From Minisyncoccia bacterium (lineage in GTDB: Bacteria; Patescibacteriota; Minisyncoccia; Phycocordibacterales; UBA918): 42,523 nucleotides of DNA. The DNA is taken from positions 1-42,523 of the forward strand of contig JBNKMC010000001.1 of NCBI GenBank assembly GCA_050292865.1, read 5' to 3'. Both the position numbers and the translations under genes were made by a program. Each line of letters opens with the position of its first letter. The first letter of the stretch is position 1. Below, in pieces: positions 2,695 to 22,335 of this stretch. The notes under the pieces were generated by a model that made no database searches, was not told the DNA's origin, and saw nothing but the letters and a program-made list of their open reading frames with translations.

Positions 2695-3552
2695 ATGGCT
2701 GAATACATCAAGCGGTACAATCCGAACCGTAGTGAGGAATGGAACTACGGCGGTGCCAAATGGCGCCTCTCACGTTCTAAGTTGGACTTTTTTCTAGAAT
2801 GTCCACGTTGTTTTTATCTCGATAATAAACTCGGCACAAAAAGACCAGGCTTTCCATCTTTTAATCTAAACATTGCGGTCGACGAACTCTTTAAAAAAGA
2901 ATTCGACAAATTTCGTGCCGAACAAAAACCACATCCAATTATGGAGAAGTATGGTATCGATGCTGTGCCTTTCCAACATAAAAACATGGACGTCTGGCGC
3001 GACAACTTTGTTGGTATTGAATACAAAGATACTGAAACGGGTTTGGTTGTTTGCGGTGCAGTCGACGATATCTGGGTAACTCCTGACAATGAACTCATCA
3101 TCGTAGACTACAAATCAACCTCCAAGGATGGTTCTATTACACAGTTGTCTGACAGTTCTTGGGACCAACAATATAAACGACAGCTTGGTGTGTACAAATG
3201 GCTACTGGAGAAAAACGGTTTTAAGGTATCCAACACTGGTTACTTGGTCTATGCCAACGCCAGCAAGGAAGAACCAAACTTCGATGACAAACTTGTATTC
3301 GAAACTACTTTGGTACCAGTAGAACTAGAAGAAGACTGGATTGAACCAGTTCTAGACAATATAAAAGCTTGCCTAGAAAGCGAAGACTTACCAGAAATAG
3401 GCAACGCCTGTGAATTCTGTCCGTATCGTGAGGCGGCTGGCAAAAAGTTTTTCAAAATCCATCAAGCCACCAAAAGTAGATCAGCTACTGGTGAAGCTTC
3501 TGAAACCAACCCTAAAGACACTATCGAGCAACTAAAGAAAAAGTATGGCTAA
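2695..3552 (+). CDS. PD-(D/E)XK nuclease, Cas4/RecB-like, with Cys cluster
   Basis: N-terminal CPRC, core VDDIWV...IIVDYKS (D...DxK), QLGVYKWLL (QxxxY-like), and C-terminal C...CEFC. Together these suggest an Fe-S Cas4-type fold. Confidence 0.75.
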   Translation: MAEYIKRYNPNRSEEWNYGGAKWRLSRSKLDFFLECPRCFYLDNKLGTKRPGFPSFNLNIAVDELFKKEFDKFRAEQKPHPIMEKYGIDAVPFQHKNMDVWRDNFVGIEYKDTETGLVVCGAVDDIWVTPDNELIIVDYKSTSKDGSITQLSDSSWDQQYKRQLGVYKWLLEKNGFKVSNTGYLVYANASKEEPNFDDKLVFETTLVPVELEEDWIEPVLDNIKACLESEDLPEIGNACEFCPYREAAGKKFFKIHQATKSRSATGEASETNPKDTIEQLKKKYG

Positions 3553-4773: not shown

Positions 4774-6571
4774 GTACGAACCACAAAATAAACTACCGAA
4801 ACTCGGCAAAATAAAGCACGAGTGGGACTTGAGTAATCTCTACTACAAAAACGAGAACGACCCACAGATAGAGCTAGACATTCGCAAAACCGAAGCGGCT
4901 TATCATAAATTTGCCAAAAAGTGGCGCGCTGCGGACTTTACCGCCGACGCCAAGACATTGGCCACAGCCCTTACCGAGTATGAAGCGTTGGTAGGTATGG
5001 CCGAGTCTGGCAAACCAGGGCGTTACTTTGGTTTCCGTCAGGCTCTAAACGCAAAAGACAATGTCGCCAAAAAACAATTGGCAATTCTTAGCAACCGTCT
5101 GCGTAAACTTGGAGATGAGGTTATTTTCTTCACACTCACTCTTGGTAAAATTCCGCAAAATCGCCAAGCGATTCTTTTAGCAGCGCCAGAACTAGAGCAT
5201 TTCCGATATTTCTTAGAACGAGTTTGGCTGGGGGCTAAGCACAACCTTAGCGAAGCTGAGGAAAAAATTATCAATCTCAAATCACGCCAATCCTACGGCA
5301 TGTGGGTTGATATGGTAGAAAAGATTATCGCCGGCAAGACCGTCAGTTGGAAGGGTGGAGAACTACCTTTTAACGAAGCGCTCGAAACCTTAGACCTACT
5401 CGGAGCCAAGGATAAAGAAAAACTCTGGGCACTCTTGGTAGACATCATGGAAGAAGTTGGTGAAATAGCCGAGCACGAGTTTAATGCCATCATTACCGAT
5501 GTCCGCACCGAAGATGACCTACGTGGCTACCAGAAGCCCTACAGCGCCACTGCCTTGGGGTATGAGGACTCCGAGCAGAGTATCGAAAACCTAGTATCTG
5601 TAATCAGCGACGAAGGCTTCAAGCTCAGTCGCAAATTCTACAAAGCCAAAGCCAAGTGGCACGGCGTCGACCAGCTGCACTACACTCGCAAGTACGAAAG
5701 CATCGGCAAAGCACCGACAATTCCGTTTACCCAAGCGGTAGAAATTTGTCGTGATGTGTTTTATGGGGTTAAATACGAATACGGACGTGTATTCGATGAA
5801 ATGCTCGAAAACGGACAAATAGACGTGCGACCAAAAGCAGGGAAGCGCGGCGGCGCCTTTATGTCTAGCACCATCGGACTACCAACCCACGTCTTTCTCA
5901 ATCATCTCGACAACTTCAAGTCACTTGAGACACTAGCACACGAAATGGGTCACGCTATCCACGCTAGCCGCAGCAAGACCCAGGAGCCACTTTACCAAGA
6001 TCATTCCATCACTACCGCCGAAACCGCCAGCACCCTCTTTGAAAACCTACTCTTCGATGCCGTCTACGAACAAGCCAGTGAGAAGGACAAACCAGTACTG
6101 CTCCATGACCGCATTGCACGTGATATTGCTACTATCCAGCGACAGATTGCTTTCTTTAACTGTGAGTTAGAGATTCACAATACGATTAAAGAACAAGGAG
6201 CAATGACCAACGACGAACTGCGAGACTGCATGTATAAACACCTCAAGTCTTACCTTGGACCAGCGATTGCACTTGATAAGCGCGACGGTTACAGCTATGC
6301 CTATGTGTCGCACTTGCGCTACGGCTTCTATGTCTACACGTACAGCTTCGGCATCCTCATGAGCACCATCATGGCTAACAATTACAAAGAAGATAAGAGC
6401 TACGCCGAGCAAATAGACAAATTCCTAACAGCCGGCCAATCAGACACGGTAGCAAATATATTTAAGTCTATCGGTATCAACACCGCCCACCCAGACACCT
6501 TCAAAAACGCCTTAAAGAATCACGCTGATGACATTGTCGCTTTTACCAAAATGGTAAACGCAAAGCAGTAG
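4736..6571 (+). CDS. pepF: Oligoendopeptidase F family (M3B) zinc metallopeptidase
   Basis: HEMGHAIH zinc motif and EWDLSNLY near the N-terminus. I chose the ATG at 4736 inside track ORF 4700..6571, which overlaps the upstream gene by 38 nt. Confidence 0.85.
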   Translation: MSKKPQSKTTQFKYEPQNKLPKLGKIKHEWDLSNLYYKNENDPQIELDIRKTEAAYHKFAKKWRAADFTADAKTLATALTEYEALVGMAESGKPGRYFGFRQALNAKDNVAKKQLAILSNRLRKLGDEVIFFTLTLGKIPQNRQAILLAAPELEHFRYFLERVWLGAKHNLSEAEEKIINLKSRQSYGMWVDMVEKIIAGKTVSWKGGELPFNEALETLDLLGAKDKEKLWALLVDIMEEVGEIAEHEFNAIITDVRTEDDLRGYQKPYSATALGYEDSEQSIENLVSVISDEGFKLSRKFYKAKAKWHGVDQLHYTRKYESIGKAPTIPFTQAVEICRDVFYGVKYEYGRVFDEMLENGQIDVRPKAGKRGGAFMSSTIGLPTHVFLNHLDNFKSLETLAHEMGHAIHASRSKTQEPLYQDHSITTAETASTLFENLLFDAVYEQASEKDKPVLLHDRIARDIATIQRQIAFFNCELEIHNTIKEQGAMTNDELRDCMYKHLKSYLGPAIALDKRDGYSYAYVSHLRYGFYVYTYSFGILMSTIMANNYKEDKSYAEQIDKFLTAGQSDTVANIFKSIGINTAHPDTFKNALKNHADDIVAFTKMVNAKQ

Positions 6572-6577
6572 AGTAAT

Positions 6578-6605
6578 TTCGAAATTCAAAATTCGAAATT
6601 CAAAA
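6578..6605. repeat. Two tandem copies of the 14-nt unit TTCGAAATTCAAAA
   Basis: Direct reading of 6578..6605, followed by the partial copy TTCAC. Confidence 0.8.
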
Positions 6606-6645
6606 TTCACACCACTCCACGTGGATAAAAATATACATTAATCTT

Positions 6646-6683
6646 AAGTGTCAATACTCCAATCGATTGGAGTATTGACACTT
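6646..6683 (+). terminator. pepF terminator hairpin (18-bp perfect stem), followed by TTGTT
   Basis: AAGTGTCAATACTCCAAT CG ATTGGAGTATTGACACTT. Confidence 0.6.
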
Positions 6684-6746
6684 TTGTTAAGGGTGGGTAT
6701 AAGTGTGGGTAGAAAGTTCGTGTAAATAAATGAAATATAAGGTTTG

Positions 6747-6790
6747 CCGTAGCAGAAAGTGCCTAATTCTTCGGACTTTTTCTGCTACGG
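6747..6790 (+). other. Stem-loop at the left boundary of the GC-rich island (12-bp stem, loop containing C-UUCG-G)
   Basis: CCGTAGCAGAAA ... TTTCTGCTACGG. Base composition switches to GC-rich immediately 3' of it. Confidence 0.4.
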
Positions 6791-6839
6791 CGCACCCAAT
6801 CCCGGGAAGGTTGTAGCAAACTGATAGGAGGATGACGCC

Positions 6840-7463
6840 ATGGCCAAGACCATGACCGCACCCCAGCAGAAACCGATGACCGACGGCCAGATCGAAGACG
6901 CGGTGTCGAAGTTCCGTGACGCGGTGCGCAAGCATCGCAACGAGCTCGACTCCGAGGCTGTCCAGAAAGTTCTCGGTACCGACAACCTCGGAATGGTGCT
7001 CTTCGCACCGTTCCGCAAGCTCGTCGAGATGGTGAACAATATGTTCACCCGCCGGGTCGAGGGCATCAACCGCGACCAAAGCCCACAAGAGGCGATTGAT
7101 GCGACGGGCCGCAAACAGTACACGGACCAGTCGGTCGTGGACGCGATGCCTCGCGGTGAGGGCGAGAACGTCGAGCTGAAGTTCTTCGAGCTCGACTACG
7201 ACCCAACTCCCACCGAGCTCAACGCCGAGTATGAGAGCCTCGGCCTCAAGGCCGATCCCTTCGCCCTGGCTAAGCACATGGAGGACGATCCGGCGTTCGC
7301 AGACGAACGTCCCGTGGCCTGCCAGTGGGACCTCGACGAGAACGGCAGGGCTTCCTTCGCCGCGTTCTCGCAGTGGCGCGTCGAGCGGCGCGTGCACGTC
7401 GACCGCGGCGACGACAAGTGGTTTCGCCTCTATCGGTTCGCCGGTGTCTCGAAATCAACCTGA
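6840..7463 (+). CDS. Hypothetical protein (207 aa), a GC-rich compositional outlier with no recognisable domain
   Basis: SD AGGAGGA at 6826..6832, 7 nt before the ATG. GC-rich third codon positions. Own intrinsic terminator. The overlapping ORFs on both strands are shadows expected in high-GC DNA. Confidence 0.75.
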   Translation: MAKTMTAPQQKPMTDGQIEDAVSKFRDAVRKHRNELDSEAVQKVLGTDNLGMVLFAPFRKLVEMVNNMFTRRVEGINRDQSPQEAIDATGRKQYTDQSVVDAMPRGEGENVELKFFELDYDPTPTELNAEYESLGLKADPFALAKHMEDDPAFADERPVACQWDLDENGRASFAAFSQWRVERRVHVDRGDDKWFRLYRFAGVSKST

Positions 7464-7481
7464 TATTTCTGTTTTCTCTTG

Positions 7482-7516
7482 GTCCGGCGCACTTGCGCGC
7501 CGGACTTTTCTTTTTA
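7482..7516 (+). terminator. Intrinsic terminator of the GC-rich gene
   Basis: GTCCGGCGC ACTTGC GCGCCGGAC followed by TTTTCTTTTT. Confidence 0.8.
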
Positions 7517-7589
7517 TGTAAACAAAAAATAAGTAAGTGTGTGGACGTGCGTTATTACGGAAGTTTTGCTATATTGTTGGGATTAAATT

Positions 7590-9494
7590 ATGTCTATGAC
7601 AGGAAATGAAATTCGCGAGAGGTATTTAAAATTCATGGCTGAAAATGGCCATGCGGTTATTCCGAGTTCCGCCTTGGTACCAGAAAACGACCCAACCACG
7701 CTCTTTACCGGTAGTGGTATGCAGCCGTTGGTACCGTATTTGATGGGGGAGTCGCACCCCAAAGGGGTGCGACTAACGGACTCACAAAAGTGCTTCCGTG
7801 CCGAAGACATCGAGGAAGTGGGCGACAACCGCCACACAACTTTCTTTGAAATGCTTGGTAACTGGTCTCTCGGTGATTATTTCAAAAAAGAACAACTTAC
7901 TTGGTTCTACACATTCCTCACTAAAGAAGTTGGTCTAGATCCTAAAAACATCTACGTCACAGCCTTTATGGGCGACGAGAGCAACAACGTACCACGCGAC
8001 ACCGAAGCAGTAGCTATTTGGCAGGAACTTTTTGCCGCTGATGGTATTAGTAACGGCGTGAGTGAAATGGGTTCAGAAGAACAAGGTGGGGAACGCGGCA
8101 TGCAAGAAGGCGAGCGTATTTTCTACTATGACGCGAGCAAAAACTGGTGGAGTCGTGCTGGCAAACCAGAAAACATGCCGGTGGGCGAAATCGGAGGACC
8201 TGACAGTGAGACTTTTTATGACTTCGGCACTCCACACGATGAAAAATTTGGCAAATACTGTCATCCCAACTGTGACTGTGGCCGTTTCCTTGAAATCGGC
8301 AACTCGGTCTTCATGGAATACCTCAAGACCGAAGCTGGTTTTGAAAAACTTCCCAATCAGAACGTCGACTTCGGTGGTGGACTTGAGCGTATTGCCGCAG
8401 CTGCGGGTGGTGACGGTGATGTCTTCAAGGTAGACCTACTCTGGACAGTAGTTGAGCAAATCGAACAGCTGTCTGGCCAAAAATACGAAGATAACCTCGA
8501 AGCTTTCCGCGTCATTACCGACCACATCCGTGGTGCGGTGTTTATGATTGGCGATGGAGTACTTCCAAGCAATACTGAGCAGGGTTACTTCGTCCGCCGA
8601 CTCCTTCGCCGCGCTGTGCGCTACGCCGACATGCTTGAGGTACCGGCCGGAGAACTTAAGAACCTAGCCAACAGCGTTATCGACACTTACAAAGACCACT
8701 ACACAAACCTGGCTGACAAGCGCAGCGAAATCATCGACGCTATTGAGAAAGAAGAAGAGCAGTTCCGTAAGACACTGGAGAAAGGTCTGCATGAGTTCGA
8801 AAAACAAGATGTAAAAATAAACCTTGGTGACACAGAAAGTAATTTTCAAGGTATCGGAGGTAAAAGAGCCTTTGATCTCTTTACTACTTACGGTTTTCCA
8901 ATCGAGCTAACAATTGAACTAGCAAAAGAAAAGGGTAAAGAAGTCGATGTTGAAGAATTTAATCGTCTAATGGAAGAACACCGCGCGAAGTCACGAGCGG
9001 GTGCCGAGCAGAAGTTCAAAGGAGGACTGGCTGACCACTCTGACAAGGTAGTGCAGTATCACACCGCTACACACCTACTACTAGCTGCTTTGCGTCACTT
9101 CTTGGGTGACCACATCCATCAGGCTGGTAGCAACATCACCGGTGAGCGTCTACGCTTTGACTTCACTCATCCAGAAAAGGTAGAACGAGAAACTCTCGAC
9201 CAGATAGAAGACTGGGTAAATGACAAAATTGCACACGGTGGAGAAGTAACCATCGAAAATATGCCGAAGACCGAGGCAGAGGCCGACCCGACAGTGGAAG
9301 GAAGTTTCTGGGATCGTTATCCTGACGAAGTGAAGGTATACACCATGCACTTAGACAACGGAGAGGTGGTGTCACGCGAGCTCTGTGGCGGTCCACACGT
9401 ACAGAACCTCACCGAACTCACTCCGACCTTCAAAATCAAGAAGGAAGAATCTTCATCAGCTGGCGTGCGCCGCATCAAAGCAGTCTTAGAGTAA
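7590..9494 (+). CDS. alaS: Alanine--tRNA ligase, short form (634 aa) ending after the editing domain
   Basis: Class II AlaRS N-terminus (IRERYLKFM..GH, FTGSGMQP, WSLGDYFK). Editing-domain motifs HTATHLL and CGGPHV. Ends with ...SSAGVRRIKAVLE. Confidence 0.93.
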   Translation: MSMTGNEIRERYLKFMAENGHAVIPSSALVPENDPTTLFTGSGMQPLVPYLMGESHPKGVRLTDSQKCFRAEDIEEVGDNRHTTFFEMLGNWSLGDYFKKEQLTWFYTFLTKEVGLDPKNIYVTAFMGDESNNVPRDTEAVAIWQELFAADGISNGVSEMGSEEQGGERGMQEGERIFYYDASKNWWSRAGKPENMPVGEIGGPDSETFYDFGTPHDEKFGKYCHPNCDCGRFLEIGNSVFMEYLKTEAGFEKLPNQNVDFGGGLERIAAAAGGDGDVFKVDLLWTVVEQIEQLSGQKYEDNLEAFRVITDHIRGAVFMIGDGVLPSNTEQGYFVRRLLRRAVRYADMLEVPAGELKNLANSVIDTYKDHYTNLADKRSEIIDAIEKEEEQFRKTLEKGLHEFEKQDVKINLGDTESNFQGIGGKRAFDLFTTYGFPIELTIELAKEKGKEVDVEEFNRLMEEHRAKSRAGAEQKFKGGLADHSDKVVQYHTATHLLLAALRHFLGDHIHQAGSNITGERLRFDFTHPEKVERETLDQIEDWVNDKIAHGGEVTIENMPKTEAEADPTVEGSFWDRYPDEVKVYTMHLDNGEVVSRELCGGPHVQNLTELTPTFKIKKEESSSAGVRRIKAVLE

Positions 9495-21283: not shown

Positions 21284-21733
21284 ATGCCTATGCCCCGCCA
21301 ATCAACCCAATTCGACTTTGGAGACTCTCGCAAACCACAGGAAGACTTTGTGCTGCTTGAAAAAATAATCGAGGACCGAGGGAGTAGATATTCGGTGAGT
21401 TATGGGCGAGTTGAGTCGCGTCAAGAAATCAAAGGTTTCTTGACGCGACTCAAATCAGATAAGAAATACGCCAAGGCGTCTCACAACAGTTGGGCTGCCC
21501 GTGTCACCCACGAAGGAGTCGTCTACGAAACCAAAAACGACGACGGAGAAACGGGCGCAGGCATGGTCATACTCCGTGTCATGCAGAAGGAGGATGTCAC
21601 TGACTGCATCATCTGCGTCACCCGCTGGTTCGGTGGCATCAAACTAATGGGCGACCGTTTCAAACACATCCAAGACGCCACCAAACACGCCATTGAATCC
21701 GAGGGGTTTAACCCCTCGGATTCAATCAATTAA
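21284..21733 (+). CDS. YigZ/IMPACT-family protein (UPF0029 N-terminal domain)
   Basis: KGSRY-like GSRYSVSYG, ASHNSWAARV, DDGETGAGMVIL and VTRWFGGIKLMG motifs. The last 13 codons are encoded by the REP-like hairpin. Confidence 0.85.
   Translation: MPMPRQSTQFDFGDSRKPQEDFVLLEKIIEDRGSRYSVSYGRVESRQEIKGFLTRLKSDKKYAKASHNSWAARVTHEGVVYETKNDDGETGAGMVILRVMQKEDVTDCIICVTRWFGGIKLMGDRFKHIQDATKHAIESEGFNPSDSIN
21694..21724. repeat. REP-like hairpin, left copy (14-bp stem, TTA loop)
   Basis: TGAATCCGAGGGGT TTA ACCCCTCGGATTCA. Confidence 0.85.
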
Positions 21734-22335
21734 GTCTCTGTTTTTAGAATACGTCTTTCTTCAGCAATCATTTTTGCGATTTTAATACTCTCCTTCAAAT
21801 CATACTTGGTAGACTTGCTAGGTAAAATTTTTGAACAAAACAACCCTTGATAGTGAAACGAACTAGAGTAACAAATTTCGTTTGGGCGATTGATTTCGTG
21901 AACAAAATGGTTTTCATTAACATATGAAAATAAATAATTATAGTATTCATCAGTATCTATATGTATTCGTTTAAATGTGCCCTGAAAAAGCGAACCAGAC
22001 CTCTCTTCCTTATCATTAAAATACGAAGTATAGCCACCAGCAACTCGTTTCATAAACTCACTTATACCACCATCAACCAACTGCTCTAAAATAAGATGAA
22101 AATGATTTGGAAGTAGAGAATAGGCATAAACCTGCACCAAACGATCATCCAAAAGCCGTTCTTTATTTTTTGAATCTTCGAAGTTATGTGTAGGTTCAAT
22201 TGTGTTAAAAACATCTAGCGACATATAAAATCGTACGAAGTCGCTCTTCGAAGAGAAAATATTTCTCTTGTCAGTACCTCTGTTGTATACATGATATTTT
22301 TCACCACTGACTAATTCAATTACTTTCCTTGCCAT
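21730..22335 (-). CDS. IS200/RAYT-type Y1 (HUH) transposase-like protein
   Basis: HUH motif in LLPNHFHLIL, conserved QG.F (LFQGTFKR), and a Tyr-containing YVNENH motif near the C-terminal third. Confidence 0.8.
   Translation of the reverse strand: MARKVIELVSGEKYHVYNRGTDKRNIFSSKSDFVRFYMSLDVFNTIEPTHNFEDSKNKERLLDDRLVQVYAYSLLPNHFHLILEQLVDGGISEFMKRVAGGYTSYFNDKEERSGSLFQGTFKRIHIDTDEYYNYLFSYVNENHFVHEINRPNEICYSSSFHYQGLFCSKILPSKSTKYDLKESIKIAKMIAEERRILKTET

What the first reader, a model, noticed from the sequence alone, without database searches (positions are those of the whole stretch)
6747..7516. Single-gene GC-rich island (207-aa orphan) with its own SD and terminator between pepF and alaS
My hand counts give 62% and 65% GC for lines 6841..6900 and 7261..7320. 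The first 60 nt of alaS, 100 nt downstream, give 38%. Codons in this ORF end overwhelmingly in G or C. This is also the only place in the window where the six-frame track piles up ORFs in nearly every frame, which is a high-GC signature. The ORF has a canonical AGGAGGA 7 nt before the ATG, whereas native genes here lack SD, and it has a textbook terminator at 7482..7516. The composition switch starts right after a stem-loop at 6747..6790. A short direct repeat CGGACTTTT(T)CT occurs at both edges (6772..6783 and 7501..7511). I recognise no domain in the protein. The pattern fits a recent single-gene acquisition from a high-GC donor. If the organism is an epibiotic CPR lineage such as Saccharibacteria, whose known hosts are high-GC Actinobacteria, the donor could be the host. 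That last step is speculation.
Basis: partly seen in the sequence, partly recalled or inferred. Interest (0 to 1): 0.65.

Follow-up and report, generated by a model that had tools for sequence, protein, structure and literature searches.

The report
Solitary DGR variable-protein gene in CPR
The GC-rich "orphan" between pepF and alaS is a stand-alone copy of a large family of hypervariable proteins that candidate-phyla-radiation bacteria rewrite with a reverse transcriptase, and its high GC is a trait of that gene family, not evidence of import from a high-GC donor.

Summary
ORF 6840-7463 has GC 0.625 and GC3 0.83 in a 0.45-GC window, with a strong SD, a terminator and an upstream stem-loop, and the assembly is not chimeric. 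The gene is not an orphan: it has 117 close homologues and about 1,550 clusters at 50% identity, and every named one is from Patescibacteria. In 16 related loci the gene is followed by a template repeat, a bAvd gene and an RVT_1 reverse transcriptase. 251 of 261 repeat mismatches fall at template adenines, which is the signature of a diversity-generating retroelement (DGR). The window's copy keeps the variable region (7353-7448), which still shows past adenine-directed diversification. The 42.5 kb window has no template repeat, Avd or RT. Sibling genomes have pepF-alaS without the gene, so it was gained in this lineage. The GC excess is intrinsic to the family: the target is richer than its own RT and Avd in 16 of 16 cassettes. 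An actinobacterial or other high-GC donor is not supported. Two by-products are a covarying sense-strand leader hairpin (6747-6790) absent from Rfam, and a confident fold with no PDB match.

The parts
6742..7516 (+). Whole island: leader, gene and terminator. It is inserted in the pepF-alaS slot.
   Evidence: GC profile. Nucleotide homology to L004/L010, which lie in other contexts, starts at 6742. Empty sites in siblings.
6747..6790 (+). Conserved leader hairpin with a 17-bp outer helix and foot GCCRYAGC...GCTRYGGC (covariance-model hit 6743-6794).
   Evidence: 13 instances in family loci, one per locus, 41-77 nt upstream of the ATG. 96.4% of cells are paired, 11 of 17 pairs have double changes, 0 of 500 shuffles reach this, and slid controls give 41-55%. 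A G.U pair is conserved in 12 of 13. The + strand scores 12-30 bits above the - strand. No Rfam match.
6826..6839 (+). Shine-Dalgarno AGGAGG (6826-6831) plus the 8-nt spacer ATGACGCC. This segment is nearly invariant across the family.
   Evidence: GGAG(G)ATGACGCCATG is conserved even between members with about 40% protein identity. Only 3 of 35 window genes have an SD core.
6840..7463 (+). Gene for a 207-aa DGR variable protein (soluble, acidic, 23.7 kDa).
   Evidence: 117 homologues and 1,553 clusters. AF2 pLDDT 93. Scaffold dN/dS 0.16-0.26. No TM segment.
7353..7448 (+). Variable region (VR), codons 172-203. It is colinear with the family's template repeats.
   Evidence: Gapless alignment to family TRs. 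17 of 26 differences from L004 fall on the 27 TR-adenine positions of 96 (Fisher p = 2.5e-6). VR dN/dS is 1.3 against scaffold 0.16-0.26. Adenine-templated codons alternate with conserved V/R/W on strand 182-190 and fill loop 191-198.
7481..7516 (+). Intrinsic terminator: GC-rich 10-bp stem, 6-nt loop and T tail.
   Evidence: Relatives have an extra 50-60-nt imperfect palindrome between the stop codon and the terminator. Here it is reduced to about 18 nt.

Best explanation
The island is a solitary copy of a Patescibacteria-specific family of DGR variable (target) proteins. SHOWN: in full family cassettes the gene is followed by a template repeat (TR) of about 98 nt, a bAvd gene on the opposite strand and an RVT_1 reverse transcriptase, and the TR differs from the gene's last ~98 nt almost only where the TR has adenine. 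INFERRED from established DGR biology (Bordetella phage BPP-1 and later systems): TR RNA is reverse-transcribed by RT-Avd with random misincorporation opposite adenine, and the cDNA replaces the VR. That rewrites about a dozen codons, which in the model alternate along one face of a C-terminal beta-sheet and an adjoining loop of a small soluble protein, giving a variable binding surface. The window's copy has an intact scaffold under purifying selection and a VR that was diversified at the family's adenine positions after it split from its nearest relatives. It has its own leader (structured hairpin plus strong SD) and its own terminator. No TR, Avd or RT lies within 42.5 kb, most of the post-stop palindrome seen in relatives is missing, and the VR is identical in every available assembly. 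The most likely state is therefore an uncoupled target with a frozen VR, kept for one fixed specificity. The gene was gained at the pepF-alaS slot in this lineage, most plausibly from another CPR genome or from another locus of the same genome. The high GC is an intrinsic, gene-specific synonymous bias of this family. Its cause is unknown.
For: Family and taxonomy. Cassette architecture. Adenine specificity: 14/14 and 17/17, and 251/261 summed over 16 loci. TR conservation and the window VR footprint (Fisher p = 2.5e-6; VR identity 71-73% against 83% upstream). dN/dS of scaffold 0.16-0.26 against VR 1.3-2.3, with lower dS in the VR. No RT or Avd in the window by tblastn, and no TR-like repeat. 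Decay series: L004 has RT and Avd but a non-cognate TR, and L010 has only a TR remnant. VR identical in 4 samples and in a second MAG. No family-type TR contig in those samples. Empty sites. GC intrinsic to the target: 16 of 16 cassettes have target above RT and Avd by a mean 13.4 points, Wilcoxon p = 3e-5. Not adenine-specific. Not expression-linked, since EF-Tu, S12 and EF-G have GC3 0.52-0.66 against 0.80-0.82. Literature: a CPR-restricted cellular DGR clade whose targets lack recognisable domains (PMC8144416), and non-adjacent or remote targets exist (PMC5758913).
Against: The rest of the genome could not be searched, so a DGR elsewhere acting in trans is not excluded. The read evidence is contigs only, which hide minority VR variants. 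The TR probe would miss a TR less than 80% identical to L032's. The fold did not match any solved DGR variable protein, so a C-type-lectin fold cannot be claimed. The donor and the insertion mechanism are unknown, and no recombinase, tRNA gene or credible target-site duplication flanks the island. The cause of the GC3 excess is unexplained, and it varies among members (N-terminal GC3 0.39-0.86).
Confidence: 0.85

Rival explanations
1. One reading: a recent single-gene transfer from a high-GC organism outside the CPR, such as an actinobacterial host, with the GC content as the donor's signature.
For: GC3 of 0.83 resembles high-GC bacterial codon usage. The gene is absent from siblings at this locus. 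It has an SD in a genome that hardly uses SD.
Against: No homologue outside Patescibacteria among named proteins or the 30 GTDB loci. Relatives down to 40% identity carry the same excess in other CPR genomes. RT and Avd in the same cassettes are not GC-rich. The host is not Saccharibacteria.
Confidence: 0.03
2. The copy is a still-active remote target. A DGR (TR, Avd and RT) elsewhere in the same genome rewrites this VR in trans.
For: Non-adjacent and remote targets are documented for other DGRs (PMC5758913). L021 has its RT 6.6 kb from the target. The window's VR was diversified after it diverged from L004/L010. The scaffold and the TTCGCCGGTGTC end of the VR are intact.
Against: The VR is identical in 4 samples and 2 assemblies. 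No family-type TR contig was found in those samples. The sequence after GGTGTC departs from the family's CCGCAA end, and the post-stop palindrome is almost gone. The nearest relatives, L004 and L010, are already uncoupled from a cognate TR.
Confidence: 0.25
3. The GC excess is unfinished amelioration. The target gene with its leader moves between CPR genomes independently of RT and Avd, and originated in GC-rich CPR lineages.
For: The hairpin-plus-gene unit is 83% identical in three unrelated contexts, with homology starting at the hairpin foot. Gene GC is loosely related to host GC (r = 0.38, p = 0.06). The excess ranges from about 0 to +25 points.
Against: Cassettes with a cognate TR, which are co-evolving units, still show target above RT and Avd in every case. 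The excess persists across 40-100% protein identity, and synonymous sites would have equilibrated over that depth (dS 0.5 to over 1).
Confidence: 0.2
4. The 5' hairpin is a DNA-level mobilisation or recombination site, for example a substrate for a single-strand Y1 (IS200-like) transposase, and not an RNA leader element.
For: Homology with L004/L010 begins exactly at the hairpin foot. Strand-specific wobble pairs are also tolerated in ssDNA hairpins. A weak Y1_Tnp ORF lies at 21730-22335 in the window.
Against: There is one hairpin per locus and no matching right-end hairpin. Orientation and distance to the ATG are fixed (41-77 nt). No Y1 transposase was called near the other family loci examined. 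The hairpin is absent from about 60% of family loci, many of which show a sigma70-type promoter in its place.
Confidence: 0.1
5. Assembly chimera: a GC-rich fragment from another organism was joined into a low-GC contig.
For: Sharp composition change. Logan unitigs break at 6654-6675.
Against: The break lies in a perfect palindrome (6646-6683) upstream of the island, and the contigs overlap there. One contig runs from low-GC sequence at 6654 through the island into alaS in several samples at matching depth. An independent MAG has the same junctions.
Confidence: 0.01

Closest known systems
DGR variable proteins of the CPR-restricted cellular DGR clade ('clade 2' of Roux et al. 2021, PMC8144416; 'CPR set' with unknown VR classes UVR1-6 of Wu et al. 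2018, PMC5758913)
   Same: Patescibacteria hosts, chromosomal location, a single small target gene directly upstream of TR, Avd and RT, no recognisable transmembrane or Pfam domain, and a C-terminal VR with AAC-rich TR codons.
   Different: I could not establish whether this exact family is one of the published clusters. The window's copy lacks the retroelement. The target-only GC3 excess and the leader hairpin were not mentioned in the passages I searched in these two surveys.
Structurally solved DGR variable proteins with a C-type-lectin fold: Mtd (Bordetella phage BPP-1), TvpA (Treponema denticola), TaqVP (Thermus aquaticus), AvpA (Nanoarchaeota) (PMC2408619, PMC6328139, PMC5006420)
   Same: The VR sits at the extreme C-terminus. 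Variable residues are interleaved with conserved aromatic, Arg and Val scaffold residues. The C-terminal domain has the beta-alpha-alpha-beta-beta-beta-beta order expected of a minimal CLec fold.
   Different: No sequence match and no Foldseek match (best E 0.47 full length, 1.4 for the domain). The only hint is TM 0.42 to the aggrecan G1 domain, whose Link modules are CLec-related by my own knowledge. The protein is soluble and has no tail-fibre, lipoprotein or surface-anchor context.
Non-adjacent or remote DGR target genes, as in the Treponema and Legionella-type DGRs (Wu et al. 2018, PMC5758913)
   Same: A VR-bearing gene with no retroelement beside it.
   Different: Remote targets are defined by a cognate TR elsewhere in the same genome, and none could be shown here. 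The nearest relatives show stepwise loss of TR, Avd and RT, which points to decay rather than trans-targeting.
Compositionally atypical genomic islets from horizontal transfer
   Same: GC and codon-usage outlier, absent from sibling genomes, with its own expression signals.
   Different: The compositional anomaly belongs to the gene family in every host and is not shared by its co-inherited neighbours, so it cannot be read as a donor signature.

Membership tests
DGR variable (target) protein | A VR at the 3' end of the gene paired with a near-identical TR | tested here: met
   Met for the family: gapless TR/VR pairs of 94-112 nt in 16 loci. Not met in the window itself: the VR (7353-7448) is colinear with family TRs, but no TR lies in 42.5 kb.
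DGR variable (target) protein | TR/VR mismatches confined to TR adenines | tested here: met
   251 of 261 mismatches at TR adenines over 16 loci. For the window, differences from close relatives are enriched at TR-adenine positions, Fisher p = 2.5e-6.
DGR variable (target) protein | A DGR-type reverse transcriptase, usually with Avd, encoded nearby | tested here: not met
   Family: RVT_1 and bAvd lie within 1 kb in 16 of 30 GTDB loci plus L004, L011 and L014. Window: tblastn with three family RTs and Avds finds nothing.
DGR variable (target) protein | An IMH at the VR 3' end and a downstream inverted repeat | tested here: inconclusive
   In relatives the TR/VR identity ends at ...GTCCGCAA, followed by a 50-60-nt imperfect palindrome and then a terminator. 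The window has GTCTCGAAA..., 18 nt, and then the terminator. No functional definition of the IMH exists for this family.
C-type-lectin-fold DGR variable domain | Structural similarity to Mtd, TvpA, TaqVP or AvpA | tested here: inconclusive
   The models are confident (pLDDT 93 and 92.7). The secondary-structure order is compatible. Foldseek finds no significant PDB hit and the profile finds no PDB sequence hit.
Recent horizontal acquisition from a high-GC non-CPR donor | Closest homologues in high-GC taxa outside the recipient's lineage | tested here: not met
   All named hits and all 30 reference-genome loci are Patescibacteria. IMG/VR has none.
Recent horizontal acquisition from a high-GC non-CPR donor | A compositional anomaly shared by all co-transferred DNA | tested here: not met
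   In cassettes the target is 13.4 points above its own RT and Avd, which lie below flank GC.
Lineage-specific insertion (any source) | Empty site in related genomes with conserved flanking synteny | tested here: met
   HD-pepF-alaS-ftsA-like synteny without the gene in L046, L094, L111, L120, L128 and L129.
Known structured RNA family (Rfam 15) for the leader hairpin | A covariance-model match at or near the gathering score | tested here: not met
   Only sub-threshold miRNA-type hairpin hits, with E of 0.04 or more and bits far below gathering.

The most novel reading that the evidence does not exclude
This reading combines three points. The synonymous GC enrichment confined to the target gene, the covarying sense-strand leader hairpin and the invariant SD-to-start segment would be functional nucleic-acid-level parts of this CPR DGR class. 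They could act in transcript stability, in controlling how much variable protein is made, or in helping recognition of the target. They would then be cis-features of DGR targets that have not been described. The VR-bearing domain would be a diversification scaffold distinct from the known C-type-lectin and Ig folds. The solitary copies would be variable proteins 'fixed' after loss of the retroelement and kept for one useful specificity.
Probability: 0.2. Interest if true: 0.7.

Novelty: new member of a known kind. Interest (0 to 1): 0.45.

Why it matters
Practically, this is a caution against reading GC or codon outliers as donor signatures. Here a whole gene family carries a GC3 excess of 10-25 points in many hosts, while the reverse transcriptase and Avd genes inherited alongside it do not. 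A DGR survey has used GC deviation of the whole element to infer recent transfer (PMC5758913). Biologically, the work assigns a mechanism to a very large family of unannotated CPR proteins (about 1,550 clusters at 50% identity): small soluble proteins whose C-terminal sheet is rewritten by a DGR. It also shows a decay path from full cassette to solitary gene with a frozen VR. It provides a confident structural model with no solved relative, and a new covarying leader hairpin to test. In organisms with genomes this small and lifestyles dependent on other cells, an abundant intracellular hypervariable binder is a good candidate for host, phage or self recognition, and it is cheap to test.

Tried and rejected
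1. Domain libraries: Pfam, NCBIfam and PADLOC gave nothing, and PHROGs only E=0.076.
2. Phage origin: the IMG/VR scan found no relative.
A subset sharing DATGRKQY worked, so those 30 loci are biased towards that motif.
5. Adenine-specific depletion as the cause of high GC: rejected, because A3 and T3 are equally depleted and the bias is uniform along the gene.
6. Expression-linked codon bias: rejected.
7. Cognate TR in L004/L010: the TR-like stretch there belongs to a different VR class.
8. TR probe on the window's own samples: no contig at 80% or more. This is weak because only contigs were available.
9. Direct repeat as a target-site duplication: rejected as probable chance.
10. Rfam match for the hairpin: none. 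The covariance model found no further copies in 423 kb.
11. The 230-aa cluster mate P0264 is a TGA read-through annotation, not a variant.

Full report
OBSERVATION. The ORF at 6840-7463 (+, 207 aa) is by far the strongest compositional outlier in the window. Its GC is 0.625, against a mean of 0.451 (sd 0.038) for windows of the same length, and the next highest window is 0.553. Its GC3 is 0.83, against 0.30-0.53 for every other long ORF. Both A and T are depleted at third positions (0.07 and 0.10, against 0.27 and 0.26), and the bias is uniform along the gene. The AGGAGG lies 8 nt before the ATG, and the genome around it hardly uses SD: 3 of 35 genes have an SD core. The terminator at 7481-7506 plus T tail is confirmed, and so is the stem-loop at 6747-6790. 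The 9-mer CGGACTTTT does occur only at 6772 and 7501. Both copies sit in the 3' arms and T runs of the two hairpins. The repeat is not conserved in the closest relatives and does not coincide with the homology boundaries, so I treat it as chance.

NOT AN ARTEFACT. Contigs from four runs of one study were laid on 6000-8300. A single 2,887-nt contig runs from 6654 (low GC) through the island and into alaS. It overlaps the pepF contig at a perfect palindrome (6646-6683), and depths match on both sides. A contig of a separate MAG assembly (L126, GCA_050291545.1) is 99.96% identical over 12.7 kb. The island there is identical except for 6762 C>T in the hairpin loop.

NOT AN ORPHAN. The word-indexed search returned 117 homologues of about 200-215 aa, from 81% down to 38% identity. 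Every named one is from Patescibacteria. An exhaustive profile search found 1,553 clusters at 50% identity with E<=1e-3, and 563 with E<=1e-30, nearly all with the same single-protein architecture. A scan of one genome per GTDB species returned 30 loci, all from Patescibacteria MAGs labelled Paceibacterota, Yonath-, Taylor-, Vogel-, Nomura-, Moranii-, Staskawicz- or Peribacteria, or generically 'Saccharibacteria'. IMG/VR has none. The window's host is itself Paceibacteria/Parcubacteria-like, since the nearest named AlaS sequences (77-79%) are from Nomura- and Kaiserbacteria.

WHAT THE FAMILY IS. In L011, L014/L015 and 14 of the 30 GTDB loci, the gene is followed within about 0.3-1 kb by three things: a gapless near-repeat of its last 94-112 nt, a bAvd gene on the opposite strand, and an RVT_1 reverse transcriptase. 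The mismatches between the two repeats fall at adenines of the downstream copy: 14/14 and 17/17, and 251/261 summed over 16 loci. That is the defining signature of a diversity-generating retroelement. The downstream copy is the template repeat (TR) and the gene's 3' end is the variable region (VR). The TRs are strikingly conserved at the nucleotide level across candidate classes and are full of AAC codons. This fits the published picture of a cellular, CPR-restricted DGR clade whose targets have no recognisable domains (PMC8144416; PMC5758913).

THE WINDOW'S COPY. Its last 96 nt before the C-terminal tail (7353-7448, codons 172-203) align without gaps to the family TRs. Its differences from its nearest relatives concentrate on the TR-adenine positions: 17 of the 26 differences from L004 fall on 27 of 96 positions (Fisher p = 2.5e-6). 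VR identity is 71-73%, against 83% for the rest of the gene. The scaffold has dN/dS of 0.16-0.26. The VR has dN/dS of about 1.3 against L004 and L010, and L004 against L010 gives 2.3, with a lower dS than the scaffold. TR-templated rewriting predicts exactly this. So the VR was written by a DGR after this lineage split from L004/L010, and the gene is functional. The window holds no RT or Avd (tblastn with three family RTs and Avds) and no TR-like repeat. A conserved family TR used as a probe found no contig at 80% or more in the four samples. The VR is identical in all samples and in both assemblies. In relatives the stop codon is followed by a 50-60-nt imperfect palindrome built of CTTNGRAY-like units and then a separate terminator. 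In the window only about 18 nt separate the stop from the terminator, and the sequence departs from the family's ...GTCCGCAA end right after GGTGTC. The nearest relatives show a plausible decay path. L004 (79% protein identity) has RT and Avd, but its TR-like stretch is of a different VR class and not cognate. L010 (75%) keeps only that TR remnant. The window keeps only the gene. I therefore judge the copy to be an uncoupled target with a frozen VR. An active DGR elsewhere in the genome stays possible, at about 0.25.

GAIN AT THIS LOCUS. Relatives with AlaS 51-81% identical keep HD-pepF-alaS-ftsA-like synteny. The pepF-alaS gap in them holds a small membrane-type ORF of 91-105 aa at host GC (L111, L046, L128, L129), another small ORF (L127), or just 84-119 nt (L120, L094). 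It never holds this gene or its hairpin. Nucleotide homology to L004/L010, which lie in unrelated contexts, starts at 6742, the foot of the leader hairpin, and ends at 7448. The unit that moved is therefore hairpin, leader and gene. I found no recombinase, tRNA gene or credible duplication that would explain how it moved.

THE GC QUESTION. Homologues are GC-rich relative to their own flanks in most genomes, for example 0.63 against 0.48, 0.53 against 0.40, 0.60 against 0.37 and 0.62 against 0.37. A minority are near zero. The N-terminal GC3 exceeds flank GC in 23 of 25 loci. In all 16 cassettes measured, the target is richer than its own RT and its own Avd by a mean 13.4 points (Wilcoxon p = 3e-5), and RT and Avd lie 4-5 points below the flanks. 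Shared import from a high-GC donor cannot give that pattern. The bias is not adenine-specific and not expression-linked, since EF-Tu, S12 and EF-G next to the target have GC3 of 0.52-0.66 against 0.80-0.82. High GC3 in the VR itself occurs in every member and is expected, because DGR templates avoid adenine at positions that must stay constant. The enrichment of the whole gene is unexplained. Independent movement of the target unit from GC-richer CPR lineages remains a partial alternative, at about 0.2.

THE PROTEIN. AlphaFold2 with the family alignment gives pLDDT 93. The model has three N-terminal helices, a mixed alpha/beta middle and a C-terminal four-stranded sheet. The adenine-templated codons alternate with conserved V, R and W along strand 182-190 and fill loop 191-198, so one face of the sheet and a loop are variable. 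There is no hydrophobic segment (maximum Kyte-Doolittle 0.98), and the pI is 5.0, so the protein is probably soluble and intracellular. Foldseek finds no significant match in PDB or BFVD, either for the whole model or for the C-terminal domain modelled alone at pLDDT 92.7. The order beta-alpha-alpha-beta-beta-beta-beta is what a minimal C-type-lectin fold would have, and the best TM-score (0.42) is to aggrecan G1. That hit is not significant, so fold membership is left open.

BY-PRODUCT: A LEADER RNA MOTIF. Thirteen family loci, with and without a retroelement, have one hairpin each on the gene's strand, 41-77 nt upstream of the ATG. The 17-bp outer helix is 96.4% paired, and 11 pairs show compensatory double changes. 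None of 500 shuffles reaches this, and slid controls give 41-55%. A G.U pair is conserved in 12 of 13, and a covariance model scores the sense strand 12-30 bits above the antisense. This points to a sense-strand RNA, or possibly ssDNA. The model finds no other copy in 423 kb, Rfam has no match, and empty-site siblings lack it. About 60% of family loci lack it, and many of those show a canonical TTGACA-17-TATAAT promoter in its place. The 16 nt from the SD to the ATG, GGAG(G)ATGACGCCATG, are nearly invariant across the family. The function of both elements is unknown. I lean towards control of transcript stability or translation.

VERDICT. The feature is a new member of a known kind: a CPR DGR variable-protein gene, here solitary. 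Three side findings deserve follow-up: the target-only GC3 excess, the leader hairpin and the unmatched fold.

Noticed in passing
window 6743-6794; L004 5907-5957; L010 5906-5957; L019 1304-1355; L023 659-710; L028 7895-7946; L031 293-345; L032 3411-3463; L034 1543-1592; L037 7704-7753; L038 4158-4231; L039 7896-7964; L043 7841-7933: A covarying sense-strand hairpin in the 5' leader of the DGR target gene. It has a 17-bp helix, 11 pairs with compensatory changes and a conserved G.U. It occurs once per locus and is absent from Rfam.
   Followed up: yes
window 6826-6842 and the equivalent positions in L004-L039: The segment GGAG(G)ATGACGCC-ATG is nearly invariant at the nucleotide level even between members with about 40% protein identity. 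It contains an out-of-frame ATG 8 nt upstream of the start, which would open a 7-codon ORF (MTPWPRP*) in the window. This level of conservation exceeds what an SD alone needs.
   Followed up: partly
L004 6619-6680, L010 6619-6680, L011 6613-6670, L023 1444-1500, L027 1998-2060 and others: Directly after the stop codon most family members, DGR-linked or solitary, have a 50-60-nt imperfect palindrome made of repeated CTTNGRAY-like units, followed by a separate GC-rich terminator. This may be the family's post-IMH inverted repeat. It is almost entirely missing in the window (7464-7481).
   Followed up: partly
L004 ~7133-7241; L010 ~7048-7150: An AAC-rich TR-like sequence (translated ...RWNSNFNWLDNDWNDNNPAAVDAT) that ends like the family TR but is not colinear with the adjacent VR. 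L004 has Avd and RT beside it, and L010 has neither. No cognate VR was found within 6 kb on either side.
   Followed up: partly
L011 6001-8419; L012/L017 (target between the M50 peptidase gene and rpsL): Family members sit inside the conserved str region. A full DGR cassette lies between fusA and tuf in L011, and a solitary target lies between the M50 peptidase gene and rpsL in L012/L017. Wu et al. 2018 also noted ribosomal protein genes interleaved with CPR DGRs.
   Followed up: no
window 21730-22335 (-): The lowest-GC ORF in the window (0.34), on the minority strand. It gives a borderline Pfam hit to the IS200-like Y1 transposase (23.1 bits, cut-off 23).
   Followed up: partly
window 6578-6609 and 6646-6683: Just after the pepF stop there is a 14-nt tandem repeat (TTCGAAATTCAAAA, 2.2 copies). 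It is followed by a perfect 38-nt palindrome with a T-rich tail, probably the pepF terminator. Logan unitigs break at the palindrome.
   Followed up: partly
L126 8001-8693 (P0264): A public annotation of the sibling MAG calls this gene as 230 aa by reading through the TGA stop, which suggests an alternative genetic code was applied. The window's long ORFs are intact under table 11.
   Followed up: yes
L111 3652-4000; L046 1834-2171; L128 1793-2068; L129 2877-3152; L127 525-842: The pepF-alaS gap is a variable slot in this lineage. It holds a small conserved membrane-type ORF of about 91-95 aa in most siblings, a different 105-aa ORF with higher GC in L127, and the DGR target in the window.
   Followed up: partly
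L043 and L045 (both from MAG JBAYLD01): Two family matches on different contigs of one MAG, which suggests some genomes carry more than one copy.
   Followed up: no
window 2695-3552 (+): A PD-(D/E)XK / Cas4-like nuclease gene with no CRISPR context seen nearby in the window.
   Followed up: no
window 7353-7448 compared with L004 and L010: Synonymous divergence in the VR (dS 0.14-0.32) is lower than in the scaffold (0.44-0.60), while dN is three to four times higher. This is consistent with a conserved TR resetting the non-adenine positions.
   Followed up: yes
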